The notes beneath the pieces were generated by a model. The model was not told where the DNA came from, searched no databases, and saw only the letters and a list, made by a program, of their open reading frames with translations. From positions 4,964 through 68,963 of the forward strand of contig CANQKY010000001.1 in NCBI GenBank assembly GCA_947624575.1: 64,000 bases of DNA, in the 5' to 3' direction. Origin of the DNA: an uncultured Clostridia bacterium (GTDB taxonomy: Bacteria > Bacillota > Clostridia > Oscillospirales > Ruminococcaceae). Position 1 is the stretch's first letter, and each line of letters begins with the position of its first letter. This document shows positions 10,990 through 24,775 of this stretch, one piece after another. The translations under genes were made by a program, and so were the position numbers.

Positions 10990-10991
10990 AA

Positions 10992-12060: not shown

Positions 12061-12089
12061 TTTACAAAACAGAATGATGAGGATATACT
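12061..12089 (+). promoter_or_regulatory. Candidate promoter of the RiPP operon
   Basis: TTTACA, 17-nt spacer, TATACT. About 350 nt upstream of the first rSAM start. Confidence 0.4.
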
Positions 12090-12437
12090 ACAGACAAAAC
12101 AGTATGATTAACACAATGATTAAGCAGCCATCATACGCTGAATTTTGGCATTGTATCAGCCATTTTAGAAGCACAGTCTATAATAATACTTATCCTTTTT
12201 GGGTGGGAGATATGTCCGAAATTGTTAAAGTTGATTACTTTTTGGTATCAGAAAAGGGAAATAGCTCGCCGTATTATTTCGATACAGAGTCCATTTTTTT
12301 ACTGTAAGAGTAATAATGTGTTTCGTATGGAAAAAGTTGTGCTCCAGTATATGGTGGTGAGAGTGGCTGAGCGGGCAAATTCAAGGTGTGCATATATTAT
12401 AGGCATCATAGAAAAACTGACAGAAAGGATTTGCGGT

Positions 12438-13865
12438 ATGATTTCGGATATACAGTATTGCTGTTTAAAAGAAGATTATGTTCTTTGGCAGACTCAGGAA
12501 CGACTATATCTGTGTGAAATTAAAACAGGGCGGCCAGTGGCAGCACTTTCTACTGGGGTAACGCCTTTGTTGCTGACCTTAAGTGGTAATCGTCTTCTTG
12601 GGGACATCTTGGAGCATTGGGCTAAAACACAAAAAATACCTTTACAAGAACTGACAGAGAAAGTACAGCATCTTTTGAAATCCCTTGCACCATTTCTCAT
12701 GTTTTCTGATAACCTTATTTCGGATGCAACTTGTCCTAAACTGATAATAGGGGATTTTCCATATCATCCTGTTGCCGTAAAAAGTGAAAAACCTCTCTAT
12801 GTGACTTTCAACATAACCGATCGTTGTAGTCGAAATTGTATCTATTGTTACATGGATTCCATTTACACCAAACAGATGGACAACTCCCATCGTTTTCTTT
12901 CGGTAGAACGGTTTGCAGATGTTTTAAAAGAGTGCAAGGATATTGGTGTACAAGCTATTGAAGTCGGTGGTGGAGATCCTTTGAATCATCCTCAAATTTT
13001 AGAATATGTCCGTCTGTTAAGTCAAAGCAAAATTCCAAATGTGCTAATTTCCACTAAGAAATATGTGCAGGAAGAATTGGCTCTACGCTTCAAAGAGGCA
13101 GGGTTGCGGGAAATCCAAATCAGTTTGGATTCGGCAGATAAAGAGATCGCCGATATTTTGATGGGAGAGCGTGGAGCATATGAGGAGGTGGTGAAGACCA
13201 TTCACAACTTTCGAAAAGCAGGCATAGATGTAAAAGTAAATGCGGTGTTGACTTCGTTAAATTGCACTAATTTCAGCAATTTGATCCAACTACTGGAGTC
13301 CATGGGTGTTTCTACTCTATCTGCCAATTATTATGGCGCATCCTGCGGACGCCATGTTGAAAGTTTATTTCCTAAAGTGGAGCAGCTTCAGGAACTGAAA
13401 AAACAGGTAGATGGAATCACTCCTTCTTTGAAAACGCTCCATTTAAGAATGCCGGATTTTCAAGAAACATTTTACGAAAACAAATGGAGTAGTGATCGGC
13501 AGATCCGCAGTTATTATCGCAGTTATTGTGGCGCCATGAAGACTCGAATTTTGGTAAATCCAGATGGTACAGTGGGGTATTGTGCCTATATCACGCAAGA
13601 TCTTTCCCGTAAAAATGGACTGATATTTGGGAATTTACATACTCAAAGCTTAATGGAGATTTGGCAATCGCCGTCAGTGGAAGATATCCTGACCCCAAAT
13701 GTACAAAAATTCCGCGGAACTCTGTGTGCCGATTGTAGGGATTTTGAAAAGTGTTATCCAAAACGTTGCTTTTTGCGGTCAATCCTGCAATATGACACTC
13801 CTTTTGAAAAAGATCCGGATTGTCGCTATTGGAACGATATGCATTGTAAAGTAATAAGAGATTGA
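12438..13865 (+). CDS. Radical SAM/SPASM peptide maturase with N-terminal PqqD-like RRE (rSAM-1)
   Basis: CxxxCxxC cluster motif in DRCSRNCIYCY. An N-terminal ~85-aa wHTH-like segment (LKEDYVLWQTQERLYLCEIKTGRPVAALSTGVTPLLLTL...) sits upstream of the core. C-terminal SPASM pattern YCGAMKTRILVNPDGTVGYC ... CADCRDFEKCYPKRC. Start at ATG 12438 (GAAAGGA RBS) preferred over track start 12222. Confidence 0.8.
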   Translation: MISDIQYCCLKEDYVLWQTQERLYLCEIKTGRPVAALSTGVTPLLLTLSGNRLLGDILEHWAKTQKIPLQELTEKVQHLLKSLAPFLMFSDNLISDATCPKLIIGDFPYHPVAVKSEKPLYVTFNITDRCSRNCIYCYMDSIYTKQMDNSHRFLSVERFADVLKECKDIGVQAIEVGGGDPLNHPQILEYVRLLSQSKIPNVLISTKKYVQEELALRFKEAGLREIQISLDSADKEIADILMGERGAYEEVVKTIHNFRKAGIDVKVNAVLTSLNCTNFSNLIQLLESMGVSTLSANYYGASCGRHVESLFPKVEQLQELKKQVDGITPSLKTLHLRMPDFQETFYENKWSSDRQIRSYYRSYCGAMKTRILVNPDGTVGYCAYITQDLSRKNGLIFGNLHTQSLMEIWQSPSVEDILTPNVQKFRGTLCADCRDFEKCYPKRCFLRSILQYDTPFEKDPDCRYWNDMHCKVIRD

Positions 13866-13880
13866 AACAGGAGCGAGCAA

Positions 13881-15011
13881 ATGAGAAGTGGAACACCAAT
13901 ATATATTTTGCCTATGCCGACACAGGTAGTTTATGCGCTTTATGTAGCTTTTTGCGGTATACAATCTGAGCCCCCTGGGCAAAATGGCTTGGCGCATTTA
14001 TATGAACATTTAAGTATTCGAAAATATCTTTTGCAACTCGGCTGCAATTTAGATGAAGGATGTATGATTAACGGATTTACCAAACGGCAATATACTGGGT
14101 ATGTGTTTCAGGCGGATAAACGGTATGCGCCACAAGTCCTTGAGGGGATTGGCCGACTGGAAAATATGTCTGCAAGGGATGGATTTTCACCTAAGGATGT
14201 GAGCAATGAAAAGAATAAAATCCGTAGAGAAAACAGTCAGCGAGATACAATTGAAACACGCTTAATAGATAAACTGATGCGAACAATTTTTTTAAAAGAA
14301 AGTTATGGGAATTCTATTTTCTGCTCGGAAAAATGTCTAGACAATCTTGGAAAAGGAGCTCTGACAAATTATGCTATCTTGGTAGAACAGGCATCTAGAG
14401 GGTTGTTTTTGGTAGGAAATCCTGCTTTTTTCCCAAAAGAAACAGCATATGGAAAAGAAGTTTGGCAGCAAAATATTCCCCAATTATGTTTTGCCGAGCC
14501 TAAACCGCCCCATATGTGGGAAAAAGGGAAACACTATGCTGTTGGTTATGTGCAAGAACCATTTGACGGGTTTCGGGAATTTTTGGTTGCTTCGCTTTCC
14601 TCTTCTTTCCTAAAAATGGCCCTTTTAAGATGGCACGGAATCCATGTGGGCGGAGAAGTAAAATTATACATCGATCAGGCAGTATCGATCTTTTGGATGA
14701 CTGATACTCAAATTGACGATATACAGAACAAAACCATACAATGGACAACCCTTTGCAGAAACGTATTGAATGATTCCCGCTTTTTTGAAGAGTTTGAAAA
14801 GGCAAAAAAGCTATATCTATATCAACTTTTAAGAACGATTGATACACCGGAATATTTGGCAATGTATCTTTTTAAAACTGCCTGTCTGCTACACACACTT
14901 CCAGAGGTAGATAAAATATTGGTAGATGTGCATTCCGTTACGGCACAGGAGGTGCGGTCAATGATTGCACGAATGTTAGAAAAACAGATTGTATATAGCG
15001 TTGTTTTATAA
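13881..15011 (+). CDS. M16-family (insulinase/pitrilysin-like) zinc protease, candidate leader peptidase
   Basis: Inverted zinc motif HxxEH = HLYEH in GLAHLYEHLS. CAGGAG RBS. Sits between the two rSAM genes. Confidence 0.65.
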   Translation: MRSGTPIYILPMPTQVVYALYVAFCGIQSEPPGQNGLAHLYEHLSIRKYLLQLGCNLDEGCMINGFTKRQYTGYVFQADKRYAPQVLEGIGRLENMSARDGFSPKDVSNEKNKIRRENSQRDTIETRLIDKLMRTIFLKESYGNSIFCSEKCLDNLGKGALTNYAILVEQASRGLFLVGNPAFFPKETAYGKEVWQQNIPQLCFAEPKPPHMWEKGKHYAVGYVQEPFDGFREFLVASLSSSFLKMALLRWHGIHVGGEVKLYIDQAVSIFWMTDTQIDDIQNKTIQWTTLCRNVLNDSRFFEEFEKAKKLYLYQLLRTIDTPEYLAMYLFKTACLLHTLPEVDKILVDVHSVTAQEVRSMIARMLEKQIVYSVVL

Positions 15012-15026
15012 AAGAGGTAAATAATT

Positions 15027-16427
15027 ATGAATATGAAAATTAAGTATATCATCTGCGAGCGAGCAAATGTGGAATTACGAAATGGAAAAGCATTTTTGCA
15101 GTGTAGCGAAAAGTATGATCAGAGCAAAAACTACCGTGTAACTAGAATGGGCTGCTTGATTTTGGCGCAATTTGACGGAAGGCGCACATTAGGAGACATT
15201 ATTTCTCATATTAGTGAACTTACGGCTCTTACCCCAGAAAAAGCCATGAAGATGGTAGAAAAAGTAGCCGATATGTTTTCTTACTATATCGTAGAGGCAA
15301 AAGGGCGCACGCGAGATTTCCCCTCTGAAAAAACTATTTGTTCCTCAGTAAAGACCTCTACATATGATGAACTGAAATTAGAACCCAGTATATTTCCCTC
15401 TACTATCTACTATTCTGCGACAAATCGTTGCGGATTCTATTGTCGATACTGTTATAGGGATTCCAACAGCAACCGTGAGGAAACTTATTATTTGACAGCA
15501 ACGCGGTGGCAAGAACTTTTAAAAGAAGCGGAAGGAACCAACTGCGGTAGTTTTGATATCGGCGGTGGCGAACCATTCTTTCGCAAGGATATAATGGATA
15601 TTTTGGGCGTAGCAAAGAAAGCAGGGCTAAAAACCAAGATATCTACCAAACTTGGATTGTCGGAAGAAATTATGCGTGGATTACGCGAAACACAATTAGA
15701 TTCTCTGCAAGTTAGTTTGGATTCCTGCGATAAGGCGGTCTGTGCTTTTTTGACTGGTCAGACATACAGCTTTCAAATGGCAGAAAAAACCATCGACAAT
15801 GCCAATCGTCTAGGGCAAAAGATTCATGTGAATTGTGTTGTAAATAAATACAACATCGAAGGAATACCGAAGTTGATCGAATTTTTGGAAAAAAAGAAAG
15901 TTCCTACTTTGGGACTTACCAAGTATATCGCTTCCTGTGGACGAAACCAGTCCGATTTGTATGCCACTGAACAGCAATTTGATCAGTTAGACGAGTATAT
16001 TTATCAATATCGAAACAATAACCCCGCAATAGAGATTGATTATCAGTATTTACTGGGACGAACATTTGAAAAAATGAAGCAAACCGATCTAACTGCGCTA
16101 CGGGTCTTATGTGGCGGCGGAAAAGATCAATTGTATGTTCGTCATGACGGGGTCGTGGGGTTTTGTGATGCACTGTTGTATGATGATCATATTTTACTGG
16201 GTGATCTGAGCCGTCAAAGTATTTCCGAAGTATGGCGTTCTAGTGAAGTAAAAAAATGGAACACACCCGATCCAGAACCGTTTAAAAACACCATTTGTGG
16301 AGACTGTCGCCTTTTCTACAAGTGTTTCCCGTATCGCTGCTACAAGCGATCTATTATTGCTTATAACACGCCCTATGCTTTGGATCCATTTTGCCCAAGA
16401 GGTGAAAAATTATTATGTGTGATGTGA
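15027..16427 (+). CDS. Radical SAM/SPASM peptide maturase with N-terminal PqqD-like RRE (rSAM-2)
   Basis: Cluster motif in NRCGFYCRYCY. N-terminal RRE-like segment (VELRNGKAFLQCSEKYDQSKNYRVTRMGCLILAQFDGRRTLGDII). SPASM tail LCGGGKDQLYVRHDGVVGFC ... CGDCRLFYKCFPYRC. Confidence 0.8.
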   Translation: MNMKIKYIICERANVELRNGKAFLQCSEKYDQSKNYRVTRMGCLILAQFDGRRTLGDIISHISELTALTPEKAMKMVEKVADMFSYYIVEAKGRTRDFPSEKTICSSVKTSTYDELKLEPSIFPSTIYYSATNRCGFYCRYCYRDSNSNREETYYLTATRWQELLKEAEGTNCGSFDIGGGEPFFRKDIMDILGVAKKAGLKTKISTKLGLSEEIMRGLRETQLDSLQVSLDSCDKAVCAFLTGQTYSFQMAEKTIDNANRLGQKIHVNCVVNKYNIEGIPKLIEFLEKKKVPTLGLTKYIASCGRNQSDLYATEQQFDQLDEYIYQYRNNNPAIEIDYQYLLGRTFEKMKQTDLTALRVLCGGGKDQLYVRHDGVVGFCDALLYDDHILLGDLSRQSISEVWRSSEVKKWNTPDPEPFKNTICGDCRLFYKCFPYRCYKRSIIAYNTPYALDPFCPRGEKLLCVM

Positions 16428-17449
16428 TATATAAAGCGCCAATGGAAAAATACGTAATTATGTTGCCCCGGGAACAATCTGCTACTCGATTTTATATTCG
16501 AACACCTTACGGTGCAATCTGCGTATTCACCAATTTAGAAAAATTGGCGGAGGTGTTGGTGCCACCATCTATGATTCAAACTGATCTTACAGGAATGTCT
16601 CCCGTGGCAAATTTGTGTGCTTTTTTTGATCCCCATGCTATAGTGAATCAAGAAATTCGGGATGGTAAATTTTTAGAGCGATCTGACCCGAGGTATATTC
16701 CCAATGTGGAAAACACCTCATATCATCGTGGAGATACAGAATTTTTAGTTTATCAATATCCATTTAAAGGGATCCTCTGCCTGCTCTTAGATATTCTATG
16801 CGGTAGTGTGACTGCGGCAAGAGAGGAAAGTTTAATCTTGTTGGCCCGCATGGCACTAAAAAAATTAATTGTCCGTCTGTATGCAACAGATGGATATTAT
16901 CCTCTCCATGCGGCAGCGGTGGGAACAGGTAATAGCGCTTATGTCTTTGTGGCAGGAGGACGTGCGGGAAAATCGACTATTTTTATGAAACTCTTAGAGT
17001 ATGGATACATTCCTATAAATGATGATCTAGTGTTTATTAAAGAAACAAAAGATGGATTAAACTGTACCGGGTTCCCTATTATTCCCAGCGTGCGGAAGGA
17101 AAGTGCTGTTTTTTTGAACAGTAAGCTTGAAAATATACCATCTCTACGTGGCTTCGAAGGAGAATATTATGTAAATGTGTGGCATTCAGAATTTGATCCA
17201 TACAAAACATATCGTTTGGTGCGGTTGTATTATCCAAAATATGGATACAAAGAGTTTTGTGTTTTTCCGCCTAAGCCTGATTTGATGAAGAAACGATTGA
17301 TAAAATCCTTTTTTACACATCAGCAGGTGGCTATCGACAAACAAGAGCAGGCTGTAAATGTGTTAAACAAACTACTCCATATCTCGGCTTTGCAGATACA
17401 AAACACAGATGATATGGATGCTTTTGCGAAGGGTTTTCCGTTTGTTTAG
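16415..17449 (+). CDS. HPr kinase/phosphorylase-like P-loop protein (RiPP-associated, ScmC/PadeK-like class)
   Basis: P-loop GGRAGKSTIFMKLLEYGYIPINDDLVFI resembles the HprK C-terminal domain. Overlaps the rSAM-2 stop (translational coupling). Confidence 0.6.
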   Translation: MCDVIYKAPMEKYVIMLPREQSATRFYIRTPYGAICVFTNLEKLAEVLVPPSMIQTDLTGMSPVANLCAFFDPHAIVNQEIRDGKFLERSDPRYIPNVENTSYHRGDTEFLVYQYPFKGILCLLLDILCGSVTAAREESLILLARMALKKLIVRLYATDGYYPLHAAAVGTGNSAYVFVAGGRAGKSTIFMKLLEYGYIPINDDLVFIKETKDGLNCTGFPIIPSVRKESAVFLNSKLENIPSLRGFEGEYYVNVWHSEFDPYKTYRLVRLYYPKYGYKEFCVFPPKPDLMKKRLIKSFFTHQQVAIDKQEQAVNVLNKLLHISALQIQNTDDMDAFAKGFPFV

Positions 17450-17450
17450 T

Positions 17451-17472
17451 TCCAAATGAGATGTTTGATCAC
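17451..17472. repeat. Left arm of the inverted repeat bracketing the precursor gene array
   Basis: TCCAAATGAGATGTTTGATCAC. Its reverse complement occurs at 17997-18019 with one extra T. Confidence 0.95.
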
Positions 17473-17492: not shown

Positions 17493-17630
17493 GTGATAGA
17501 CATAGAAGATATGATGAGTTTAGAGGATATGCAGGAAATCATCGAACTTTCCATGAATGATTTTGATGATATGGAAATTTTCTGTGTGTGTACAGGGACC
17601 TGTGTAACACTACGTTGTGTTCACGGGTAA
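17493..17630 (+). CDS. RiPP precursor peptide 1 (45 aa)
   Basis: AGGAGG RBS 6 nt upstream of GTG 17493 (alternative ATG 17511). Translation (M)IDIEDMMSLEDMQEIIELSMNDFDDMEIFCVCTGTCVTLRCVHG. Shares the DDMEIFCxCTGTCVTLRC block with two downstream ORFs despite synonymous codon divergence. Confidence 0.75.
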   Translation: MIDIEDMMSLEDMQEIIELSMNDFDDMEIFCVCTGTCVTLRCVHG

Positions 17631-17667: not shown

Positions 17668-17805
17668 ATGGAAGACATGCTTTTGAGCAAAGAGGAGTTG
17701 CAAGAACTATTTTCTGTCAACGCTAACGATCTGGATGACATGGAAATCTTTTGCTATTGTACGGGTACTTGCGTCACTCTTCGTTGCACAACTGGCAACA
17801 ACTAA
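17668..17805 (+). CDS. RiPP precursor peptide 2 (45 aa)
   Basis: AGGAGG RBS 8 nt upstream of ATG. Translation MEDMLLSKEELQELFSVNANDLDDMEIFCYCTGTCVTLRCTTGNN. Confidence 0.8.
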   Translation: MEDMLLSKEELQELFSVNANDLDDMEIFCYCTGTCVTLRCTTGNN

Positions 17806-17829: not shown

Positions 17830-17964
17830 ATGAAAGATAACACGGAAATGACGGTAGAAGAAATGACTGCATTGCAATCACTACTGGTGAATGACTTTGA
17901 AGACATGGAAATCTTTTGCTATTGTACGGGTACTTGCGTCACTCTTCGTTGCGGTGTTAATTAA
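17830..17964 (+). CDS. RiPP precursor peptide 3 (44 aa)
   Basis: AAGGAGA RBS 6 nt upstream of ATG. Translation MKDNTEMTVEEMTALQSLLVNDFEDMEIFCYCTGTCVTLRCGVN. The 51-nt stretch 17902-17952 is identical to 17737-17787. Confidence 0.8.
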   Translation: MKDNTEMTVEEMTALQSLLVNDFEDMEIFCYCTGTCVTLRCGVN

Positions 17965-17996: not shown

Positions 17997-18019
17997 GTGA
18001 TCAAACATCTCATTTTGGA
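17997..18019. repeat. Right arm of the inverted repeat bracketing the precursor gene array
   Basis: GTGATCAAACATCTCATTTTGGA, about 30 nt upstream of the ABC transporter RBS. Confidence 0.95.
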
Positions 18020-18052: not shown

Positions 18053-19870
18053 ATGCATCGCAACAGAAACAGTTCTTCATATAGGTCTAGGAAGAATATC
18101 AGATTTATGCTTTTTCATTTGTGGAAATGTTCGCCTTCGCGGGTGATTTGGTCTTTTGTCACCGCACTTTTCGGAAATGCTATCGAGATCGGCATAAGTG
18201 TATATCTTTTTCGCTATATCATAAACGGCATTCAGGCCGGATATTCTTTTGCGAGGCTGTTTTTAGTCACTTCGGCGGTTATGGGTATCGCCTTGCTTAT
18301 GCTCTTCTTTTTGGATTGGTACAACAACGTTTACATTCCTCGTTCTGATTTAAAAATAAGCAAATATTTTGATACTTTGCTGTTTCAAAAGGCTCGGCAG
18401 ATCGATCTTGAATACTTCGATAAGACGGAATTTTACAATCAATACACAAAAGCGGTACAAGAAAGCTCCAAAAGAGCCATCGGCGTGCTGAACGATCTTT
18501 CTTCTGTGTTTTCTGCCGTCACAGTGCTGTTCGGGTTGGGAACGATTCTTTTATCCATGAATCCGATTTTGATCGCATTTACATTTATGCCAATCGTGAT
18601 ATCGCTGCCACTCAGTGTGCTGCGTAATAAACTTAATTTCAAATTTCAGCAGGAAACAACGCCGGAAAACCGAAAAATAGAATATTACAAACGGTTGCTC
18701 TATCAAAAAGAATATGCCAAAGAGATCAAGCTGACAAAAATCTTTCCGGTTTTGTTGTCTAAATATGTCACCACTAACGAGAACATGAGCAAACTTTCGG
18801 CAAAATTCGGCGTTCGTCGTGCGGGCTTAGGAATGTTGGAAACGTTTAATCAGGTGGCTGTAGTTATGTATGCTACCTATGTCTATTTAATATACAGCAT
18901 TACGGTGTCTAAAAGACTAATGATCGGGGATTTTGTGGCTTTATATAATGCCGTTCGCAGCGCGGAATATTCGCTTCGCCGTATAATTGAGATTGTGCCG
19001 CGCCTTAACGAACATAGCCTTTTTATCCAAAATGTGCGTGATTTTCTTAACTTGCAGCCTCATATTATTGAACCGGAAAATCCCATACCGATCTCAGACG
19101 GAGACTTTGATTTGTCCATTGAAGCCGTACAGTTTACATATGACGATCGAAGCCGCTTGATCTTACGGGACATCTGTATGCGAATTGAACAGAAACAAAA
19201 GATAGCCATTGTTGGACGAAACGGCGCGGGGAAATCCACTCTTGTCAAAACGATCATGCGGTTATACGAACCCAAGCAGGGATGCGTGTATTTCGGCGGC
19301 AAGGATTACAGGAATTATTCGCTTGAAGAATACCACGCATTGTTTGGAACGGTGTTTCAAGATTTCGCTTTATATCATATAAGCGTGGCAGAAAACGTGG
19401 CTATGGATTTTGTCACGCAGGAAAATGAGCCGCACATCCGCAAAGTGCTGAAAAAAGTGGGGCTTTACGATAAGATTATGGCAGAAGGCAAAGATATCTA
19501 TCACGACGTTTCAAAAGAGTTTTCCGAAGACGGCATAGTATTCTCCGGCGGCGAAGAACAAAAGCTCGCTATCGCAAGGGCGTTTGTTCACCCCAACAAG
19601 ATATTGGTTTTTGACGAGGCTTCAAGCGCGCTCGATCCCATTTCGGAATATGAAATGAACCATATGATTTTGGATATGGCAAAGGATAAAACGGTTATAT
19701 TGATATCTCATCGCCTGTCATCCACACGCGATGCGGACAGGATCTATTATTTGGAAAACGGTCAGATTCTCGAAGAGGGCACCCACGAGGAACTCATGGC
19801 GCAAAACGGCGGCTATGCGCGTATGTTCAGTTTGCAGGCGGAACAGTATCTGGGTAAAGAAAATGGCTAA
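18053..19870 (+). CDS. ABC exporter, fused permease/ATPase (no C39 peptidase domain)
   Basis: Six-TM N-terminal half. Walker A GRNGAGKST, signature FSGGEEQK, Walker B ILVFDEASSALD. Confidence 0.85.
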   Translation: MHRNRNSSSYRSRKNIRFMLFHLWKCSPSRVIWSFVTALFGNAIEIGISVYLFRYIINGIQAGYSFARLFLVTSAVMGIALLMLFFLDWYNNVYIPRSDLKISKYFDTLLFQKARQIDLEYFDKTEFYNQYTKAVQESSKRAIGVLNDLSSVFSAVTVLFGLGTILLSMNPILIAFTFMPIVISLPLSVLRNKLNFKFQQETTPENRKIEYYKRLLYQKEYAKEIKLTKIFPVLLSKYVTTNENMSKLSAKFGVRRAGLGMLETFNQVAVVMYATYVYLIYSITVSKRLMIGDFVALYNAVRSAEYSLRRIIEIVPRLNEHSLFIQNVRDFLNLQPHIIEPENPIPISDGDFDLSIEAVQFTYDDRSRLILRDICMRIEQKQKIAIVGRNGAGKSTLVKTIMRLYEPKQGCVYFGGKDYRNYSLEEYHALFGTVFQDFALYHISVAENVAMDFVTQENEPHIRKVLKKVGLYDKIMAEGKDIYHDVSKEFSEDGIVFSGGEEQKLAIARAFVHPNKILVFDEASSALDPISEYEMNHMILDMAKDKTVILISHRLSSTRDADRIYYLENGQILEEGTHEELMAQNGGYARMFSLQAEQYLGKENG

Positions 19871-20093
19871 ATATCGCTCCTTATGAAATTTTTCGGTTCT
19901 AAATGTGTTTATTTATATGGATGATTTAAAAACCATACCGACACCTTGAAAAAACAGGTCATCGAAGTAAGGAACTGGATGACTTTGACTCAATTGATGA
20001 GAGTATTTGACGGTATTCACAAGATTGTACGCACCGTTTACATAGTATTACCAAAGCCGCATTTATATCAAACTATCAAGATCGGGACATTCT

Positions 20094-20123
20094 AGAATTT
20101 AATGTCCATCGACATTAAATTCT
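20094..20123. promoter_or_regulatory. Perfect 13-bp-arm palindrome upstream of the nucleotidyltransferase gene
   Basis: AGAATTTAATGTC-CATC-GACATTAAATTCT. Confidence 0.5.
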
Positions 20124-20208
20124 TAAGTCTATGTATCTTTCACAAGCAGGAAAATACAAAATCAGTTTTTCCAATCAAACTGTAATGAGCAGAGGAGCGA
20201 AAAGGCTT

Positions 20209-21726
20209 ATGACATGCGATGAGTATATTTTTAAATATTTGATTAGTAATTTTTCGACTCTTGAATCAATTAAAATGTTAAGAGAAAATTCGCTTTACAT
20301 TAAATTTGCAGATAAATTTGCAAAAAAAGACAACAAAAAACTTATAGAAATGAATCGTTTATTTAACTCATTTAATATTACTGCAGCACGCAACATCCTT
20401 GGCGATATTGAAACAATGCATACTGAGTATATTATTTTTAAAGGTTTTGTGCTTTCACAACGTTTATATGGGAGCCCAGATCAAAGGATATGGGGCGACA
20501 TTGATTTTTATGTTAAATCACAGTATTTTGATAAGGTCTATTTTTACTTACTTAAAAAAGGGTATGAATTGACTTATAAAGATGGGTTATCTAATCCACA
20601 TCATGTAGGATTGAAAAAAGGAGGAAAACTACTAGAACTTCATAGAACTATTTTTCATCCTAAAGTTGAAATCAACGAAGATTTCTTAAGAAAAAATCTG
20701 CAACATTATATAATTTCAGACTCCAAAAATACAACATTTGAAGTTACAACATTTAATGAAACCGCTACCATCTTGCACCTAATTTATCATTTATATATGG
20801 ATACATATTTTGCCTCATTTAATTTGAAGTCGATATTTACAAGCAGAAAATTGCCAAAAGCACGTCGGTTTTTATATCGTGCTTATGAAATAGCTCTTTT
20901 TTCAGAAAAGTATTATTGCAAAATAAATTGGACAGATATTCAAAATGATTTGACACATCAGAAATTTCGTATATTCTTCAAAAAAATGATATTAGATATT
21001 ATTGAGATTTTTCCAAATGCATTCCCGGAAAGCTTTTTGAATACTGTATTTAGGCTTAATTATATTGGCGATGAAAGGGATGAATTATATAGGTGTTTTA
21101 TGAAAGCCAATGACAAGGAAACAAGTAAAAATACACTATTATGCGATTATATCAATAATAAATGGCTCGCACGTAGGGAAAAGAACATATCAAAAAAGGT
21201 TGGCGACAGTATAACACTTAATAAGGCATCAAAAAATGGAAGCGAATATGATTTGAGTTGCTTTATAAGCACGGAAAAATCAGCGGAAGGATTGAATGTA
21301 GTTTTTAAGGTGTCAAATGACGATTTCTGCATTAGTGAAAGAAATGACTATAATACAATGATAAGTGACGGAGTTCATTTGTTACTTTGTGGAACTGAAG
21401 AATACTCTTACAATAGCATATTCTTCTTTCCAAAAGAAATCGACGGGAATATCGAGGTTATACCTTATGATGCACTTAACAATGAGACTTTGAGTGACGA
21501 TTTAATCAAGGCTGAATTTACAAAAACTGAAAATGAGTATTGTATTACTGCCGGATTCAGCAATGAGTTTTTACAAAAAAATCATCTAAATTTGTATTTA
21601 TATTTGGGACTAGTTATATCTGATTGTAGTAGCCATACACATTATCGAAAAAACAGCTTAATTCTTTCAGAGGAAGACTCGCAGTGGTATAATCCTATAT
21701 ATTTTGCAAAGTTTGATATGGCATAA
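20209..21726 (+). CDS. NTP_transf_5-type nucleotidyltransferase family protein with long C-terminal extension
   Basis: FKGFVLSQRLYGSPDQRIWGDIDFYV matches the core of the uncharacterised nucleotidyltransferase family found with PqqD/HprK-like genes. The likely start is ATG 20209 (MTCDEY); the track ORF begins at 20131. Confidence 0.55.
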   Translation: MTCDEYIFKYLISNFSTLESIKMLRENSLYIKFADKFAKKDNKKLIEMNRLFNSFNITAARNILGDIETMHTEYIIFKGFVLSQRLYGSPDQRIWGDIDFYVKSQYFDKVYFYLLKKGYELTYKDGLSNPHHVGLKKGGKLLELHRTIFHPKVEINEDFLRKNLQHYIISDSKNTTFEVTTFNETATILHLIYHLYMDTYFASFNLKSIFTSRKLPKARRFLYRAYEIALFSEKYYCKINWTDIQNDLTHQKFRIFFKKMILDIIEIFPNAFPESFLNTVFRLNYIGDERDELYRCFMKANDKETSKNTLLCDYINNKWLARREKNISKKVGDSITLNKASKNGSEYDLSCFISTEKSAEGLNVVFKVSNDDFCISERNDYNTMISDGVHLLLCGTEEYSYNSIFFFPKEIDGNIEVIPYDALNNETLSDDLIKAEFTKTENEYCITAGFSNEFLQKNHLNLYLYLGLVISDCSSHTHYRKNSLILSEEDSQWYNPIYFAKFDMA

Positions 21727-21776
21727 ATCTGAAAGAAAAAAGTTCTATTCTTGAAACATATTAGAGGAAGAAGCGC

Positions 21777-22928
21777 ATGCCACATTGCAATAAAAAAATG
21801 CTATCGTTTTTTCTGACAACTAAATGCAACCTATGCTGCGTGTATTGCTATAACGCCACAGAACGTAATGCCCTTGAAGAGCAAAGCGTCTCATTAGAGA
21901 TAACCAAATATGCTATTGATTGGTATTTCGAGAATAACCAAAGTCGCCATATTCGTTTTTATGGTCCGGGTGAGCCTACGCAGGAATTCGCAAAAATGAG
22001 GGAAATTACCGAATATGCGAAGAATCATTCTAATGGCGGAGATAAAGTAACCGTTGAAATTCAGACTAATGGCGTATTCACAGAAGAAGTTCGAAAGTGG
22101 ATTTTGGATAATGTAAATATTGTGTGGATGTCTTTTGATGGTATGAAGGATATTCAAAACAGTAATCGCCCATTAAATCCGAAATACAAATCCATATTCG
22201 ATGAAAGGACTTCTGCGGATATATTAGAGGGCAATGTGAAATGGCTAATTCAAAATACCGGCAAAAGAGATTTAATGGTTGGTGCTCGTGTTACGATTAC
22301 AGATAGCAATATAGACAGACAGAAGGAATTGGTTGATTACTTTTATTCATTGGGGATAAGATATGTTTGGACGAATCCACTTTTTTATTCAGTAGGACAG
22401 GTTCCCGTCAGTGAAGATGAAAGAAAGCGTAAGGATTTTCATTTTGACATGAACAAGTATGTCGATGAGTATCTTCTTGCGTATACTTATGCAAAAGAAA
22501 AAGGTTTATTTTGGGGTAGTTTTTTGACAATAAATTTTGATGGAACAGCTGAACATCATTGTCGTTGCTGTACTCCGATGGAAGCTCCTCACATAACAAC
22601 GGATGGCTATATTTCAGCCTGTGATATGGCACTCAAGGGTTTGGATGCACACCATATGGATTGCTTTATCGTTGCAAAATGGAATGACCATACAAAACAA
22701 TTTGACTGGGATATGGATAAAGTTAGAACACTCTATGAGCGAAAATCCACCAATCTGTCGGATTGTTATAATTGCCCTGTCAAACTTCACTGTGGCGGGT
22801 GTTGTCTTGGCGAAACTATGAATGAATTTGGTTGTCTCGATAAACATAATTTTACAAAATGTAACGCAATTAGAAGACTTTATAAAGCACTTGGGCCTTG
22901 CAGGCCATACACTTATTTACATCCTTAA
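21777..22928 (+). CDS. Radical SAM/SPASM enzyme without RRE (rSAM-3)
   Basis: Cluster motif CNLCCVYC within FFLTTKCNLCCVYCYN. C-terminal Cys-rich SPASM-like HHCRCCTPMEAPHITTDGYISAC ... CYNCPVKLHCGGCC. Confidence 0.75.
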   Translation: MPHCNKKMLSFFLTTKCNLCCVYCYNATERNALEEQSVSLEITKYAIDWYFENNQSRHIRFYGPGEPTQEFAKMREITEYAKNHSNGGDKVTVEIQTNGVFTEEVRKWILDNVNIVWMSFDGMKDIQNSNRPLNPKYKSIFDERTSADILEGNVKWLIQNTGKRDLMVGARVTITDSNIDRQKELVDYFYSLGIRYVWTNPLFYSVGQVPVSEDERKRKDFHFDMNKYVDEYLLAYTYAKEKGLFWGSFLTINFDGTAEHHCRCCTPMEAPHITTDGYISACDMALKGLDAHHMDCFIVAKWNDHTKQFDWDMDKVRTLYERKSTNLSDCYNCPVKLHCGGCCLGETMNEFGCLDKHNFTKCNAIRRLYKALGPCRPYTYLHP

Positions 22929-22959
22929 ACTAAAAATCTTTAAAAGGAGATTAATAATT

Positions 22960-23712
22960 ATGAAAGTTTATGTCGTTAATGGTGCTGCTCATGAGGGCTT
23001 TGGTGAAGCTACCGCGCGAACTTTAATTGAAGAGGGATGCAAGGTTATAGGATTGTACGAAAAAGAAGACGAAAAAAATGTAGTAAAATTAAAACAAGAA
23101 TTTTCTGATTCTCAATTTGAATGCATTTGCATTGATTTGTTTGATTTTAACAAGTTAAAATTAACTCTTGCACATATTGACAGCTCAATTGATGGATTTG
23201 TTAATGCTGCTTTTACTTTTGACATGGAAAATGTTGATGATTTCAACTATGATTTAGCCGAAAAGCTTTTCAGAGCAAATTACCATGCCCCAATGCTTAT
23301 GGCGATTGAATTAAAAAAGAAAATGAGAACCGGTTCCTCAATTGTTTTTGTCACTAGTACCGAATCGGATAGGGGTTCATTCGGCGGGATTTCTTATGCG
23401 GCTTCTAAAGCGGCAATTCATAATATGATTAAATCTCTTGCATGCAATTGGGGCAAATCTAGTCGAATTAGAGTTAATGCTGTTGCAGCAGGCTGGATCG
23501 GCGGCGAAATGGACACAGACGGTCCTTTTGAGGTTTCCATGAACATTACCCCGTTGGGAAGGTTGGGACATGCTGATGAAATTGCAAATGCGGTGTCATT
23601 TCTTTTATCGGATAAAGCGAGCTTTATAAATGCTCAAGTTACCTATGTGGATGGGGGCTACCTTGCCGTTGATGATATAGCTAAATATGAGTTTGAAGTT
23701 TCTAAGAAATAA
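22960..23712 (+). CDS. Short-chain dehydrogenase/reductase (SDR)
   Basis: 250 aa from ATG 22960 (AAAGGAGA RBS). Catalytic YAASKAAIHNM (YxxxK). The N-terminal nucleotide-binding turn VVNGAAHEGFG is atypical. Confidence 0.7.
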   Translation: MKVYVVNGAAHEGFGEATARTLIEEGCKVIGLYEKEDEKNVVKLKQEFSDSQFECICIDLFDFNKLKLTLAHIDSSIDGFVNAAFTFDMENVDDFNYDLAEKLFRANYHAPMLMAIELKKKMRTGSSIVFVTSTESDRGSFGGISYAASKAAIHNMIKSLACNWGKSSRIRVNAVAAGWIGGEMDTDGPFEVSMNITPLGRLGHADEIANAVSFLLSDKASFINAQVTYVDGGYLAVDDIAKYEFEVSKK

Positions 23713-23728
23713 TTGATGTGAGTGAGAT

Positions 23729-24775
23729 ATGAAAAGTAAATATGATCAACGACAAAAGAAATGGGCATGGTATGATACGCTTCTGCTAATATTTGCAGTA
23801 GCTTCCCCTGTGATATCAGTTCTTTGCTCGATATTTATTCCCGGAACAACAGTAGATGGCCGAATTGCCATTATAGTCGGTGGATTTACGATACAAATAG
23901 TCTTGGCTTCAATTCAAATTAAACTTAGTATTAATCCAATTTTAGAAATGGTGGAAAAAAATAGGGATGCTTTATTGGATATTGAGAAAACTGTACAGAT
24001 AGTTGATGAAACAAAAAAAATCAATGAGACAAATAATAAACATCGAATTGATTATTTTCAAAGACGTTTAGACGAATTTGAAAGAATGCTGCAGCACTGT
24101 GTTCCTCCGAATTCAACATCGGAATTGTTAGACGTTAGGGTATATTACAATGAACTATATAATATGGCAGAGCAACTCTTACATGATAAAAACCCATCAA
24201 AGTGTTTTGTTTGGGCAATGACTGGATTTTCTGAAATGGAATGGTCTGACAATGGATGGGAGCAGGAGTGGACGAGACGGCTCAAGTGTTTGTCTGCCAG
24301 AAAGATAATTACAAAGAGAGTATGCTTGATCAGTAGAGAAATAATTAGTTTTTTGAAATGTACAGATAATAGTTGGTTCACTCCCATTTTACATACCGCA
24401 GCTAATGCTGCCCCGCTTCCTACAAATGCAGCTCGGTTTAAAAGTTTTGCAGATTATTTAAAAGATAATAATGGTGAATTAACTGAAAGTTATTTTCTGT
24501 ATCAGGACAATGCTGCATATAGTGAGCTAATTAGTGAAAAAGGTTTTTTTGGAATAACTTTATCCACTGGTGAAAAATATTTGACTAAAGGAGAAGCTCT
24601 TACAGTAGCTGATGGATTAACAGGTGAATATGTTTTTGATGAAAAACTTATTGAGAAAATATTTAACTTGCATGCACGTATATGCATACCAGAGAATGAC
24701 TTGTTGAAGGAGGTTAATAAGATTGCGTCGGTAGAATGTAGAAATTTTTTGAGACATTATGGAGCTGAAATATAA
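23729..24775 (+). CDS. Hypothetical membrane protein (two N-terminal TM helices; immunity/accessory candidate)
   Basis: 348-aa ORF, 17 nt after the SDR stop. TM segments LLLIFAVASPVISVLCSIFI and IAIIVGGFTIQIVLASIQI. No recognised domain. Confidence 0.5.
   Translation: MKSKYDQRQKKWAWYDTLLLIFAVASPVISVLCSIFIPGTTVDGRIAIIVGGFTIQIVLASIQIKLSINPILEMVEKNRDALLDIEKTVQIVDETKKINETNNKHRIDYFQRRLDEFERMLQHCVPPNSTSELLDVRVYYNELYNMAEQLLHDKNPSKCFVWAMTGFSEMEWSDNGWEQEWTRRLKCLSARKIITKRVCLISREIISFLKCTDNSWFTPILHTAANAAPLPTNAARFKSFADYLKDNNGELTESYFLYQDNAAYSELISEKGFFGITLSTGEKYLTKGEALTVADGLTGEYVFDEKLIEKIFNLHARICIPENDLLKEVNKIASVECRNFLRHYGAEI

What the first reader, a model, noticed from the sequence alone, without database searches (positions are those of the whole stretch)
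12061..24775. Multi-radical-SAM RiPP locus with an unusual enzyme combination (2 RRE-rSAM/SPASM + M16 protease + HprK-like + ABC + NTP_transf_5 + third rSAM + SDR)
Eleven co-directional, tightly spaced genes lie in a visibly AT-rich block.
- Two radical SAM enzymes each have an N-terminal PqqD-like recognition element, a CxxxCxxC motif (CSRNCIYC, CGFYCRYC) and a SPASM tail.
- Between them sits an M16 protease (HLYEH).
- An HPr-kinase-like P-loop protein (GGRAGKST) follows, then three short Cys-rich precursor genes and an ABC exporter.
- After a 260-nt gap come an NTP_transf_5-type nucleotidyltransferase, a third rSAM/SPASM enzyme lacking an RRE, an SDR and a membrane protein.

Individual parts recall known systems. 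Subtilosin has AlbA rSAM plus the M16-like AlbE/AlbF plus an ABC transporter. Thuricin CD has two rSAMs and two peptides. The uncharacterised SynChlorMet cassette has two rSAM/SPASM enzymes plus the HprK-like ScmC. The paeninodin lasso system has an HprK-like peptide kinase. I know of no characterised RiPP with this combination or with the core C-x-C-T-G-T-C-V-T-L-R-C. Novelty is an inference from memory only.
Basis: partly seen in the sequence, partly recalled or inferred. Interest (0 to 1): 0.9.

Follow-up and report, generated by a model that had tools for sequence, protein, structure and literature searches.

The report
Rare two-radical-SAM peptide gene cluster
This is an intact gene cluster for a small, cysteine-rich, enzyme-modified peptide. 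It belongs to a very rare, so far undescribed family that combines two radical-SAM enzymes with a kinase-like protein and a nucleotidyltransferase, so the product may carry a new kind of peptide chemistry.

Summary
**Observation.** It is confirmed. Twelve co-directional genes (12438-24775, + strand) lie in an AT-rich island next to a conjugation module. All quoted motifs are present.

**Conserved core.** Comparison with five other locus types from metagenomes shows a recurring set:
- two paralogous RRE-radical-SAM/SPASM enzymes
- an M16 protease
- an HprK-like P-loop protein, always directly after radical-SAM enzyme 2
- 1-3 short precursors
- ABC exporter(s)
- an NTP_transf_5 nucleotidyltransferase in every locus whose contig reaches far enough

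**Precursors.** They share an acidic leader ending D-x-E-[IV]-[LF].

**Variable genes.** The third radical-SAM enzyme, the SDR and the membrane protein occur only here. The third enzyme is 85% identical to a gene in an unrelated mobilizable cassette. They are lineage-specific additions or a separate unit.

**Novelty.** No curated NCBIfam model is reached for any protein. No paper in the library prints these peptides. The precursor family appears in only a handful of contigs among billions of proteins.

**Likely mechanism (inferred).** Leader-guided thioether-type crosslinking at three Cys, phosphorylation plus sugar or nucleotide addition as in the lasso peptide pseudomycoidin, then M16 leader removal and ABC export.

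**Rating.** New variant of a known kind.

The parts
12438..13865 (+). rSAM-1: RRE-radical SAM/SPASM peptide maturase (475 aa from ATG 12438; the ORF opens at 12222)
   Evidence: Pfam Radical_SAM 98 bits and SPASM 47 bits. The CxxxCxxC motif and seven SPASM Cys are invariant in 50 relatives. Orthologues at 34-38% identity occupy the first position of L007, L011/L012 and L028. The N-terminal profile best matches the RRE proteins TfuB1 and PqqD.
13881..15011 (+). M16 (insulinase-type) zinc protease, the presumed leader peptidase
   Evidence: Pfam Peptidase_M16 38.9 bits against a cutoff of 22.3. The HxxEH motif (HLYEH) is invariant in four locus types.
15027..16427 (+). rSAM-2: second RRE-radical SAM/SPASM maturase, paralogue of rSAM-1 (26% identity)
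   Evidence: Pfam Radical_SAM and SPASM. This is the best-conserved enzyme of the family: 54% identity to L011/L012, 40% to L028 and 39% to L031. It is always followed directly by the HprK-like gene.
16415..17449 (+). HprK-like P-loop protein (344 aa), overlapping the rSAM-2 stop by 13 nt
   Evidence: Weak matches over the P-loop region to TIGR04355, TIGR04352 and ScmC TIGR04249, seen in all three members scanned. H165, G181, K186, T188 and N202-D203-D204 are invariant in five locus types. There is no Pfam hit and no significant PDB sequence hit.
17454..17472 (+). Left arm of a perfect 19-nt inverted repeat bracketing the precursor genes
   Evidence: Found. The predicted RNA fold closes the whole precursor region with this stem (z-score -3.74). 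Analogous brackets of different sequence occur in L028 and L031.
17493..17630 (+). Precursor A (45 aa, GTG start): ...NDFDDMEIF-CVCTGTCVTLRCVHG
   Evidence: Ribosome-binding site AAAGGAGG. It shows 13 synonymous against 2 non-synonymous codon changes versus B and C in the conserved block. It aligns with 11 homologues.
17668..17805 (+). Precursor B (45 aa): ...NDLDDMEIF-CYCTGTCVTLRCTTGNN
   Evidence: The same peptide is encoded on four metagenome contigs with the same neighbours.
17830..17964 (+). Precursor C (44 aa): ...NDFEDMEIF-CYCTGTCVTLRCGVN
17997..18015 (+). Right arm of the 19-nt inverted repeat
18053..19870 (+). ABC exporter (fused permease and ATPase, no peptidase domain)
   Evidence: Pfam ABC_tran 96 bits. 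It resembles MsbA, HlyB and NHLP-type exporters but scores below every cutoff. It is 53% identical to the ABC gene of L012.
20131..21726 (+). NTP_transf_5 nucleotidyltransferase (531 aa, or 505 aa from ATG 20209)
   Evidence: Pfam PF14907 76.9 bits against a cutoff of 31.2. The motif KG..YG-x4-R-x3-DxD is invariant in the window, L012 and L031. The same family follows the ABC gene(s), directly or after one gene, in L012, L028 and L031.
21777..22928 (+). rSAM-3: radical SAM/SPASM enzyme without an RRE (SCIFF/PapB/QhpD-like); a lineage-specific addition
   Evidence: The best NCBIfam hit is PapB at 86.8 bits against a cutoff of 340. The best PDB hit is CteB, aligned from CteB residue 97. It is 85% identical in protein and 80% in DNA, exactly gene-long, to a gene in the mobilizable cassettes L017-L022. 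It is absent from all related loci.
22960..23712 (+). Short-chain dehydrogenase/reductase (250 aa); a lineage-specific addition
   Evidence: Pfam adh_short_C2 147 bits. It is 35% identical to the SDR that accompanies the rSAM-3 homologue in L017.
23729..24775 (+). Membrane protein of unknown family (348 aa, hydrophobic N-terminal segments); its role is untested (immunity is one guess)
   Evidence: No significant Pfam or NCBIfam hit. It is present only in this locus type.

Best explanation
**What it is.** The window carries a complete member of a rare, undescribed RiPP family. The conserved core is nine genes: rSAM-1, M16, rSAM-2, the HprK-like protein, three precursors, the ABC exporter and NTP_transf_5.

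**Proposed pathway.**
1. Each 44-45-residue precursor has an acidic leader ending D-x-E-[IV]-[LF] and a core of about 15 residues built around C-T-G-x-C-x(3,4)-C.
2. The two paralogous radical-SAM/SPASM enzymes bind the leader through their N-terminal RRE-like domains. They install crosslinks at the three invariant Cys. Thioether (sactionine or ranthionine type) is the most likely chemistry.
3. The HprK-like P-loop protein is translationally coupled to rSAM-2. With the NTP_transf_5 enzyme it forms a tailoring pair like PsmK/PsmN of the lasso peptide pseudomycoidin. That pair phosphorylates a hydroxyl and then adds a sugar or nucleotide-derived group to the phosphate. Here the invariant Thr of C-T-G is the best acceptor candidate.
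4. The M16 protease removes the leader.
5. The ABC transporter exports the product.

**The other three genes.** rSAM-3, the SDR and the membrane protein are a lineage-specific tail. Other lineages carry different genes in that place: YcaO plus AsnB-like, FkbH plus ACP, a DOT1-like methyltransferase, or extra rSAMs.

**Setting.** The whole locus is AT-rich cargo beside a conjugative transfer module.

**Shown versus inferred.**
- Shown here: gene content, motifs, conservation of the set, selection on the peptides and rarity.
- Inferred: every chemical step.
For: **Gene content and motifs.**

**Conserved set in independent loci.**
- L011/L012.
- L007/L008/L036.
- L028-30.
- L031-33/L035.
- L037.

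**Two orthologous rSAM groups.** rSAM-1 matches the first rSAM of other loci at 34-38% identity. rSAM-2 matches the second at 39-54%. Identity across the two groups is 27-33%.

**Precursors.**
- The twelve-sequence alignment has invariant D, E, C-T-G, C and C.
- L037 shares the leader motif.
- Codon changes between paralogues are 13 synonymous against 2 non-synonymous.

**Catalytic motifs.**
- The SPASM Cys set is invariant.
- The RRE is supported at family level.
- HxxEH is invariant in the M16 proteins.
- The nucleotidyltransferase DxD motif is invariant.
- The HprK-like H, K and DD residues are invariant, with consistent weak matches to HprK-related families and ScmC.

**Precedent for the tailoring pair.** PsmK phosphorylates and PsmN then adds hexose to the phosphate in pseudomycoidin (PMC6993621; PMC9266682).

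**Precedent for M16 leader peptidases in RiPPs.** PMC10885120.
Against: - No product chemistry was tested.
- The HprK-like assignment is weak: 20.7 bits against a cutoff of 200, no Pfam hit and no significant PDB sequence hit. Both structure models failed, with pLDDT 34 and 30.
- In L028 and L031 the P-loop reads GGSHASKT and GGARTSKT, with Ser in place of the second Walker Gly.
- The peptides have no C-terminal Ser, which is the site used by the lasso kinases.
- I could not test whether PsmN belongs to PF14907.
- The NTP_transf_5 proteins of the different loci are only about 23-27% identical.
- In the window, a 260-nt gap with a palindrome separates NTP_transf_5 from the ABC gene.
- L037 and L007/L036 show no NTP_transf_5 within the DNA available.
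Confidence: 0.6

Rival explanations
1. All twelve genes form one pathway. rSAM-3 and the SDR act on the same peptides as extra tailoring steps (a third crosslink, or an oxidation, reduction or epimerisation). The membrane protein gives immunity.
For: - The genes are co-directional, with gaps of only 16-50 nt from NTP_transf_5 to the membrane gene.
- They lie in the same AT-rich island.
- The arrangement is identical on four to five independent metagenome contigs.
- Other lineages also carry variable tailoring genes downstream of NTP_transf_5.
- The nearest named families of rSAM-3 are thioether-forming peptide maturases: PapB, SCIFF and QhpD, and CteB in the PDB.
Against: - None of the three genes occurs in any related locus.
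- rSAM-3 has no RRE.
- Its 85%-identical homologue sits with a 35%-identical SDR in a different cassette that has no such precursor and lies on mobilizable elements.
- GC drops from about 0.40 in the core to 0.30-0.38 in this part.
Confidence: 0.35
2. The product is an ordinary sactipeptide- or ranthipeptide-type bacteriocin modified only by the rSAM enzymes. The HprK-like and NTP_transf_5 proteins do not modify the peptide. They could be an ATP-dependent chaperone or partner of rSAM-2, an immunity function, or a regulator.
For: - The kinase assignment is weak.
- The Walker motif varies between loci.
- The related ScmC has no known function, as reflected in its NCBIfam name.
- The tight coupling to rSAM-2 fits a protein partner as well as it fits an enzyme.
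Against: - His, Lys, Thr and Asn-Asp-Asp are invariant across locus types that are only 29-39% identical to the window protein, which points to catalysis.
- The nucleotidyltransferase catalytic DxD is invariant.
- In the one tested RiPP case, the same pair of protein types modifies the peptide.
Confidence: 0.25
3. The peptide is not an antibiotic. It is a signal or a metal-binding, Cys-rich peptide. The Cys residues may remain as free thiols or disulfides, and the rSAM enzymes may carry out other chemistry such as epimerisation or C-C crosslinks.
For: - The core is very short, with three or four Cys and an invariant C-T-G.
- The rSAM enzymes fall in the broad PqqE-like SPASM group, which includes C-C crosslinking enzymes and non-thioether enzymes.
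- No immunity gene could be identified.
Against: - A dedicated ABC exporter and multiple precursor paralogues are typical of bacteriocin loci.
- There is no sensor kinase or regulator in the window locus.
- Nothing tested here tells bioactivities apart.
Confidence: 0.15

Closest known systems
Sactipeptide and ranthipeptide gene clusters (subtilosin A alb; thuricin CD trn; thermocellin CteB)
   Same: - RRE-radical SAM/SPASM maturases sit next to short Cys-containing precursors and an ABC exporter.
- Subtilosin also has M16-type proteins (AlbE/AlbF).
- Thuricin CD also has two rSAM enzymes and more than one precursor. This last point and the AlbE/F point are from established knowledge, with AlbEF cited in PMC10885120.
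   Different: - AlbA model: 71.5 bits against a cutoff of 850. StsB model: 67-68 bits against 625.
- There is one M16 gene rather than an AlbE/F pair.
- The core is much shorter (about 15 residues), with a conserved C-T-G-x-C motif not matched by any curated precursor model.
- An HprK-like protein and NTP_transf_5 are conserved parts of the set.
SynChlorMet cassette (NCBIfam TIGR04249 ScmC, TIGR04250 ScmE, TIGR04251 ScmF), uncharacterised
   Same: Two PqqE-like rSAM/SPASM enzymes occur together with an HprK-related P-loop protein. All three HprK-like proteins scanned (window, P0068 and L011) give weak ScmC matches over the P-loop.
   Different: - Scores are far below the cutoffs: ScmC 16 against 125, ScmE 64-70 against 400, ScmF 59-91 against 400.
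- Here the RRE is fused to the enzymes rather than being a separate PqqD protein (the separate PqqD is from memory of the TIGRFAMs description).
- Here M16, the ABC exporter, NTP_transf_5 and defined precursors are present.
Lasso-peptide tailoring pair PsmK (HprK-type kinase) plus PsmN (nucleotidyltransferase-like) of pseudomycoidin; PadeK of paeninodin
   Same: An HprK-type protein and an 'uncharacterised NTP transferase' are encoded together in a RiPP cluster beside an ABC exporter. In pseudomycoidin they phosphorylate the peptide and then add hexose to the phosphate (PMC6993621).
   Different: - The window has no lasso cyclase and no B protein.
- The peptides here lack the C-terminal Ser that the lasso kinases use.
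- HprK-related models are matched only weakly.
- Homology of NTP_transf_5 to PsmN itself was not tested.
M16 leader peptidases of class III lanthipeptides (PttP1/PttP2)
   Same: A zinc M16 protease is encoded for, or correlated with, leader removal in a RiPP pathway (PMC10885120).
   Different: PttP1/PttP2 is a heteromeric pair, often encoded outside the cluster. Here a single 376-residue M16 gene sits between the two rSAM genes.

Membership tests
Radical SAM/SPASM RiPP maturases (PqqE-like group, which includes sactisynthases) | CxxxCxxC radical-SAM cluster motif | tested here: met
   CSRNCIYC and CGFYCRYC are present. Pfam Radical_SAM scores 98 and 75 bits. C130, C134 and C137 are invariant in 50 relatives.
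Radical SAM/SPASM RiPP maturases (PqqE-like group, which includes sactisynthases) | C-terminal SPASM domain with seven Cys for two auxiliary clusters | tested here: met
   Pfam SPASM scores 46.7 and 38.7 bits against a cutoff of 21.5. Seven C-terminal Cys and the Gly are invariant.
Radical SAM/SPASM RiPP maturases (PqqE-like group, which includes sactisynthases) | N-terminal RiPP recognition element (PqqD-like winged helix) | tested here: inconclusive
   The two window proteins give no Pfam PqqD hit. A profile of 20 N-termini of the family has TfuB1 (E 0.015) and PqqD (E 0.017) as its best PDB matches, and 8 of 20 members hit Pfam PqqD with best E 1.4e-5.
Radical SAM/SPASM RiPP maturases (PqqE-like group, which includes sactisynthases) | Thioether (S-C alpha/beta/gamma) crosslinks in the product | not testable with these tools
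   This needs mass spectrometry or NMR of the modified peptide.
Subtilosin-type system (AlbA with AlbE/AlbF) | Maturase reaches the AlbA model; paired M16-like AlbE and AlbF | tested here: not met
   NF012164 AlbA scores 71.5 bits against a cutoff of 850. Only one M16 gene is present.
SynChlorMet cassette | Proteins reach the ScmC, ScmE and ScmF equivalog cutoffs | tested here: not met
   ScmC scores 16.1 against 125. ScmE scores 64.4 and 69.7 against 400. ScmF scores 90.7 and 58.8 against 400.
HprK-related peptide kinases (TIGR04352, TIGR04355; lasso PadeK/PsmK type) | HprK/PEPCK-type P-loop domain with the catalytic His, Lys and Asp-Asp | tested here: inconclusive
   Scores are 20.7 and 13.7 bits against a cutoff of 200, but all three members scanned match the same region. 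H165, K186 and D203-D204 are invariant. There is no Pfam hit and no significant PDB hit. The structure models are unusable.
HprK-related peptide kinases (TIGR04352, TIGR04355; lasso PadeK/PsmK type) | C-terminal Ser of the precursor as phospho-acceptor; lasso cyclase and B protein in the cluster | tested here: not met
   The peptides end in G or N. The window has no Asn-synthase-like or B-protein gene. Only L028 has an AsnB-like gene, which scores 32.6 bits against 525 for the lasso cyclase model.
Pfam NTP_transf_5 (PF14907) | Score above the Pfam gathering threshold; G[SG]...DxD nucleotidyltransferase motif | tested here: met
   The score is 76.9 bits against a cutoff of 31.2. YG-x4-R-x3-DID is conserved in three locus types.
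Peptidase M16 | Pfam threshold reached and HxxEH zinc motif present | tested here: met
   The score is 38.9 bits against a cutoff of 22.3. HxxEH is invariant in four locus types.
PapB / SCIFF ranthipeptide maturases (for rSAM-3) | Reaches the equivalog cutoff; has an N-terminal RRE; has an adjacent cognate precursor | tested here: not met
   PapB scores 86.8 against 340 and SCIFF 70.5 against 425. The protein starts at the radical-SAM core, aligned from CteB residue 97. The homologous cassette has no cognate precursor next to the gene.
Thuricin CD-type two-rSAM sactibiotics | TrnC/TrnD-like maturases, each paired with one of two peptides | not tested
   No TrnC or TrnD model or sequence was available in the tools. 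The resemblance is architectural and recalled from the literature (see also PMC4289311).

The most novel reading that the evidence does not exclude
This is the first radical-SAM RiPP class in which crosslinking is obligatorily coupled to HprK-type O-phosphorylation and nucleotidyltransferase-dependent decoration of the core, most likely at the invariant Thr of C-T-G. The product would be a phosphodiester-linked glyco- or nucleotidyl-thioether peptide. It would also give the first function for ScmC-like proteins of double-rSAM cassettes. In addition, the precursor cassette would be controlled by a conserved long-range RNA stem or an invertible DNA segment that brackets only the precursor genes.
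Probability: 0.3. Interest if true: 0.8.

Novelty: new variant of a known kind. Interest (0 to 1): 0.62.

Why it matters
- **New chemistry.** If the inferred pathway holds, the family joins two tailoring logics never seen together: radical-SAM crosslinking, and the kinase plus nucleotidyltransferase decoration known only from lasso peptides. The scaffold is only about 15 residues, so the product is likely a new compact chemotype.
- **A handle on orphan proteins.** It offers a testable entry to the function of HprK-related ScmC-like proteins, which have sat beside paired radical-SAM enzymes in curated but uncharacterised cassettes.
- **Experimentally tractable.** The locus is small and complete, has three natural substrate variants, and rides on a conjugative element in low-GC anaerobe DNA. 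It is practical for heterologous expression and relevant to competition in anaerobic communities.
- **Natural combinatorial series.** Each lineage carries different tailoring genes: YcaO plus AsnB-like, FkbH plus ACP, a methyltransferase, or extra rSAMs.

Tried and rejected
- **Structure of the HprK-like protein.** AlphaFold2 gave unusable models with one sequence (pLDDT 34) and with two (pLDDT 30). No fold search was run.
- **Sequence or profile search of the HprK-like protein against the PDB.**
  - Nothing significant was found.
  - The only suggestive hit was the PEPCK P-loop at E 0.98.
  - Pfam gave nothing for any of five members.
- **Finding the source genome or relatives among GTDB representative genomes.**
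  - The first alignment was too divergent to search with.
  - The second found only distant rSAM enzymes, for example a Lachnospiraceae locus with a CxxxC-repeat precursor.
  - The source organism stays unidentified. The only clue is a 73% DNA match of a transfer gene to a Vescimonas plasmid.
- **Plasmid collection.** No HprK-like homologue was found, and the only rSAM-2 matches are about 25% identical rhizobial rSAMs.
- **Literature.**
  - No paper combines HprK or HPr kinase with radical-SAM peptides beyond a 2014 survey that mentions them separately.
  - Nothing was found for SynChlorMet, and nothing useful for PF14907.
  - No paper prints any of the peptide sequences.
- **Rfam scan of 8.5-26.5 kb.** No match reached a gathering score. 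The window has no tRNA genes.
- **Rejected: chance ORFs.** The short ORFs are not chance, given the codon-change pattern, ribosome-binding sites and homologues.
- **Rejected: membership of named families.** The locus is not a member of the subtilosin, SCIFF/PapB or SynChlorMet families, because the scores are far below the cutoffs.
- **Rejected: NTP_transf_5 as a separate unit.** The 260-nt gap does not set it apart, because the gene recurs downstream of the ABC gene(s) in three other locus types.

Full report
**1. What is in the window**

The + strand between 12.2 and 24.8 kb carries twelve tightly spaced genes.

| Gene | Coordinates | Notes |
|---|---|---|
| rSAM-1 | ORF from 12222; most likely start ATG 12438; ends 13865 | |
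| M16 protease | 13881-15011 | HLYEH |
| rSAM-2 | 15027-16427 | |
| P-loop protein | 16415-17449 | GGRAGKST; overlaps the rSAM-2 stop by 13 nt |
| Precursors A, B, C | 17493-17630, 17668-17805, 17830-17964 | each behind an AGGAGG-type ribosome-binding site |
| ABC exporter | 18053-19870 | no peptidase domain |
| NTP_transf_5 | 20131 (or 20209)-21726 | follows a 260-nt gap |
| rSAM-3 | 21777-22928 | |
| SDR | 22960-23712 | |
| Membrane protein | 23729-24775 | |

Pfam confirms the domain calls. The block is AT-rich: GC is 0.29-0.43, against about 0.50 from 26 kb on. The flank at 26-45 kb encodes a conjugative transfer apparatus: a TrbL-like protein, a VirB4-like ATPase, a coupling protein and a large SpaA/TQ/thioester adhesin. 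The locus therefore looks like cargo of a conjugative element.

**2. The short ORFs are real genes**

- The three precursor genes form a 63-nt direct-repeat family.
- Over the conserved 21-codon block, paralogue A differs from B and from C by 13 synonymous and only 2 non-synonymous codons. That is the signature of selection on the peptide.
- Homologous peptides sit in the same position in other loci (section 3).

**3. A conserved but very rare family**

*Rarity of the precursors and enzymes*
- A word-indexed search of 5.8 billion protein clusters with precursor B found only itself and paralogue C. These peptides occur on four or five contigs: one NCBI contig of 137,837 bp and a few ENA assemblies of one series.
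- rSAM-1 has few close relatives in the word-indexed search.
- The exhaustive HMMER search of 1.84 billion representatives found 180 proteins at E <= 1e-30 and 2889 at E <= 1e-10. Nearly all are RRE-rSAM/SPASM proteins of about 470 residues, 27-39% identical to rSAM-1.
- None of the top 50 matches any NCBIfam peptide-maturase model at 1e-40.

*Locus types found by looking up neighbourhoods*

| Locus type | Gene order |
|---|---|
| L011/L012 | PPTase fragment, rSAM-1, M16, rSAM-2, HprK-like (38%), three precursors, an IS transposase, ABC (53%), NTP_transf_5, ACP, FkbH-domain protein, 835-residue orphan |
| L007/L008/L036 | rSAM-1, M16, rSAM-2, two precursors, a split HprK-like gene among IS debris (a decaying copy) |
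| L028-30 | YcaO, rSAM-1, M16, two precursors, rSAM-2, HprK-like (30%), two ABC genes, an AsnB-like protein, NTP_transf_5 |
| L031-33/L035 | M16, two precursors, rSAM-2, HprK-like (31%), two ABC genes, NTP_transf_5, a DOT1-like methyltransferase |
| L037 | regulator, rSAM, rSAM-2-like, HprK-like, one precursor, rSAM, ABC, rSAM, M16-like |

*Further scans*
- A scan of 241 million metagenome records with the precursor alignment returned just three loci. All belong to these types.
- A scan of one genome per GTDB species returned none of the family.

*What recurs*
- The recurring set is rSAM-1, M16, rSAM-2, HprK-like, precursor(s), ABC and NTP_transf_5.
- rSAM-1 and rSAM-2 are distinct orthologous groups. 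Identity within a group is 34-54%. Across groups it is 27-33%. Each therefore has its own conserved role.
- The HprK-like gene follows the rSAM-2 orthologue directly, or overlaps it, in every intact locus.

**4. The peptides**

- Twelve distinct precursors align with invariant D24, E26, C31, T32, G33, C35 and C40.
- The leader ends ...[SN][IV][DN]D[LF][DE]D-x-E-[IV]-[LF]. The core is x-x-C-T-G-x(1,2)-C-x(3,4)-C followed by 3-5 mostly Gly or Asn residues.
- The first Cys of the window's C-x-C is T, S or N in other members.
- L037 keeps the leader motif (SIDDLDDIDVL) but has a different core, CSCSTCCHWQVRN.
- No curated precursor model matches.

**5. The enzymes**

*rSAM-1 and rSAM-2*
- Both have CxxxCxxC and a complete seven-Cys SPASM set.
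- Their nearest named families are the broad PqqE-like group: PqqE, MoaA, NirJ, GeoRSP, ScmE/F, mycofactocin, WgkB, AlbA and StsB. All scores are far below the cutoffs.
- The N-terminal roughly 110 residues give no Pfam PqqD hit for the window proteins. A profile of 20 family N-termini, however, has the RRE proteins TfuB1 and PqqD as its best PDB matches (E about 0.015-0.017). Eight of the 20 members hit Pfam PqqD. An RRE is likely but is shown only at family level.

*M16 protease*
- The HxxEH motif is invariant.

*NTP_transf_5*
- It passes the Pfam threshold. Its KG..YG-x4-R-x3-DxD motif is conserved across locus types.

*P-loop protein*
- It is the weakest call.
- It has no Pfam hit and no significant PDB sequence match.
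- The three members scanned all match HprK-related kinase B, HprK-related kinase A and ScmC over the same P-loop stretch, at E 1e-3 to 3.5e-5.
- H165, G181, K186, T188 and N202-D203-D204 are invariant in five locus types.
- From my memory of HprK/P, the His-to-Lys and Lys-to-Asp-Asp spacings match that enzyme. I could not verify this with the tools.
- Two structure predictions failed.

**6. The variable tail**

- rSAM-3 begins at its radical-SAM core and has no RRE. Its best PDB match, CteB, aligns from CteB residue 97.
- Its nearest named families are PapB, QhpD and the SCIFF maturases, all below cutoff.
- Its 90% cluster has 44 members. One member, P0013, is seen on 77 contigs.
- In those contigs the gene is 85% identical in protein and 80% in DNA. 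The DNA similarity stops exactly at the gene ends.
- There it sits in a different cassette: rSAM, a PAS-like protein, a 129-residue protein, an SDR (35% identical to the window's), a PAD_porph-family protein and a SET/GNAT protein. The cassette lies next to a serine recombinase and a Mob_Pre relaxase, with no similar precursor.
- None of rSAM-3, the SDR or the membrane protein occurs in the other family loci.
- They are therefore either a lineage-specific tailoring set recruited from a mobile pool, or an independent unit parked next to the cluster. I put about 0.35 on participation in the same pathway.

**7. Mechanism**

*Shown*
- An intact, selected and recurrent gene set with preserved catalytic motifs.

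*Inferred*
- Leader-guided modification of the three invariant Cys by the two rSAM/SPASM enzymes. Thioether formation is the commonest outcome for Cys-rich substrates of this enzyme group (established knowledge of sactipeptides and ranthipeptides).
- Decoration by the HprK-like and NTP_transf_5 pair. The one tested precedent is pseudomycoidin. There PsmK phosphorylates the peptide, and PsmN, an 'uncharacterised NTP transferase', is needed to add one or two hexoses to the phosphate (PMC6993621; PMC9266682).
- The acceptor here. These peptides have no C-terminal Ser, so the invariant Thr of C-T-G is the best candidate.
- Leader removal by M16. Precedents are PttP1/P2 and AlbE/F (PMC10885120).
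- Export by the ABC transporter.

*Confidence*
- That this is a functional RiPP cluster of an undescribed family: about 0.85.
- For the full pathway as stated: about 0.6 overall.
- For thioether chemistry: about 0.5.
- For peptide phosphorylation: about 0.4.

**8. Comparison with known systems**

- The locus works like a sactipeptide or ranthipeptide cluster, but it is not a member of the AlbA, StsB, SCIFF or PapB families. The scores are several-fold to about ten-fold below the cutoffs.
- It shares the architecture of the uncharacterised SynChlorMet cassette (two PqqE-like rSAM/SPASM enzymes plus an HprK-related protein). It fails all three equivalog cutoffs.
- It shares the kinase plus nucleotidyltransferase pair with Firmicute lasso clusters, but it has no lasso machinery.
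- Literature searches found no description of this combination or of these peptides.
- I rate it a new variant of a known kind: a radical-SAM RiPP with a new, conserved enzyme set and a new precursor family.

**9. A feature seen in passing**

- A perfect 19-nt inverted repeat brackets exactly the three precursor genes: 17454-17472 and 17997-18015.
- The predicted RNA fold of 17445-18025 closes the whole tricistronic segment with this stem, in both the minimum-energy and centroid structures (z-score -3.74).
- Brackets of different sequence occupy the same position in L028 (21 of 24 complementary) and L031 (13 of 13, plus an extension).
- Flank duplex energies beat all 60 shuffles in the window (z -4.5) and in L031 (z -3.1). 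The + strand is favoured over the - strand.
- This suggests an RNA stem that processes or stabilises the precursor transcript, or else an invertible DNA segment. All five available assemblies show the same orientation.

**10. Limits**

- The source organism is unknown.
- No product chemistry can be tested here.
- The kinase assignment is weak.
- The family census depends on a small number of short metagenome contigs.

Noticed in passing
window 17454-17472 and 17997-18015; also L028 11204-11227 / 11638-11661 and L031 971-983 / 1345-1357: A perfect 19-nt inverted repeat brackets exactly the three precursor genes. The predicted RNA fold closes the whole precursor segment with this stem (z-score -3.74). 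Brackets of different sequence sit at the same place in two other locus types. It could be an RNA processing or stabilising stem, or the ends of an invertible DNA segment.
   Followed up: partly
window 20096-20123: A 12-bp perfect palindrome (GAATTTAATGTC-catc-GACATTAAATTC) lies in the 260-nt gap, just upstream of the NTP_transf_5 start. It could be an operator or a weak hairpin.
   Followed up: no
L017-L022 (for example L017 10001-15597): The 85%-identical homologue of rSAM-3 lies in a recurrent cassette of unknown function: rSAM, a PAS-like 395-residue protein, a 129-residue protein, an SDR, a PAD_porph-family protein and a SET/GNAT protein. The cassette sits beside a serine recombinase and a Mob_Pre relaxase. 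That rSAM protein is seen on 77 contigs.
   Followed up: partly
L012 12860-17213; L028 6853-8568 and 18033-19718; L031 9218-9886; L037 whole locus: Each lineage of the family carries different extra genes. L012 has an ACP, an FkbH-domain protein and an 835-residue orphan, plus a PPTase fragment upstream. L028 has YcaO (overlapping rSAM-1) and an AsnB-like protein. L031 has a DOT1-like methyltransferase. L037 has four rSAM enzymes and a different core, CSCSTCCHWQVRN, behind the same leader motif.
   Followed up: partly
L007 4605-5857; L036 300-3800: One locus type appears to be decaying. Transposase fragments lie around the precursor genes, and the HprK-like gene is split into two ORFs (L036 2272-2709 and 3102-3797).
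   Followed up: partly
L009 1879-6358: A high-GC (0.70) locus has a 68-residue precursor ending SCCGTCTGISFIPPCKNACIAVSPLF, which also contains C-T-G. Two rSAM/SPASM enzymes and an S8 protease follow it. It may be a distant cousin of the family.
   Followed up: no
window 26002-44613: A conjugative transfer module sits directly downstream of the AT-rich island. It includes a TrbL-like protein, a C39-like hydrolase, a VirB4-like ATPase, a coupling protein and a 1698-residue adhesin with thioester, TQ-ester and SpaA domains. Its only DNA match is 73% identity to a Vescimonas fastidiosa plasmid gene.
   Followed up: partly
window 9934-11804 (- strand) and 24911-25669 (+ strand): Four ORFs inside the same AT-rich island have no Pfam or NCBIfam match: 351 residues (hydrophobic C-terminal segments), 270, 115 and 74 residues. 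Any link to the cluster, such as immunity or regulation, is unknown.
   Followed up: no
window 1607-6732 (- strand): The left flank encodes polysaccharide-type biosynthesis genes: a pyruvyl transferase, an FrhB-like Fe-S protein, a class-V aminotransferase, and a cytidylyltransferase fused to a GFO/IDH/MocA-type oxidoreductase. They are unrelated to the finding.
   Followed up: no
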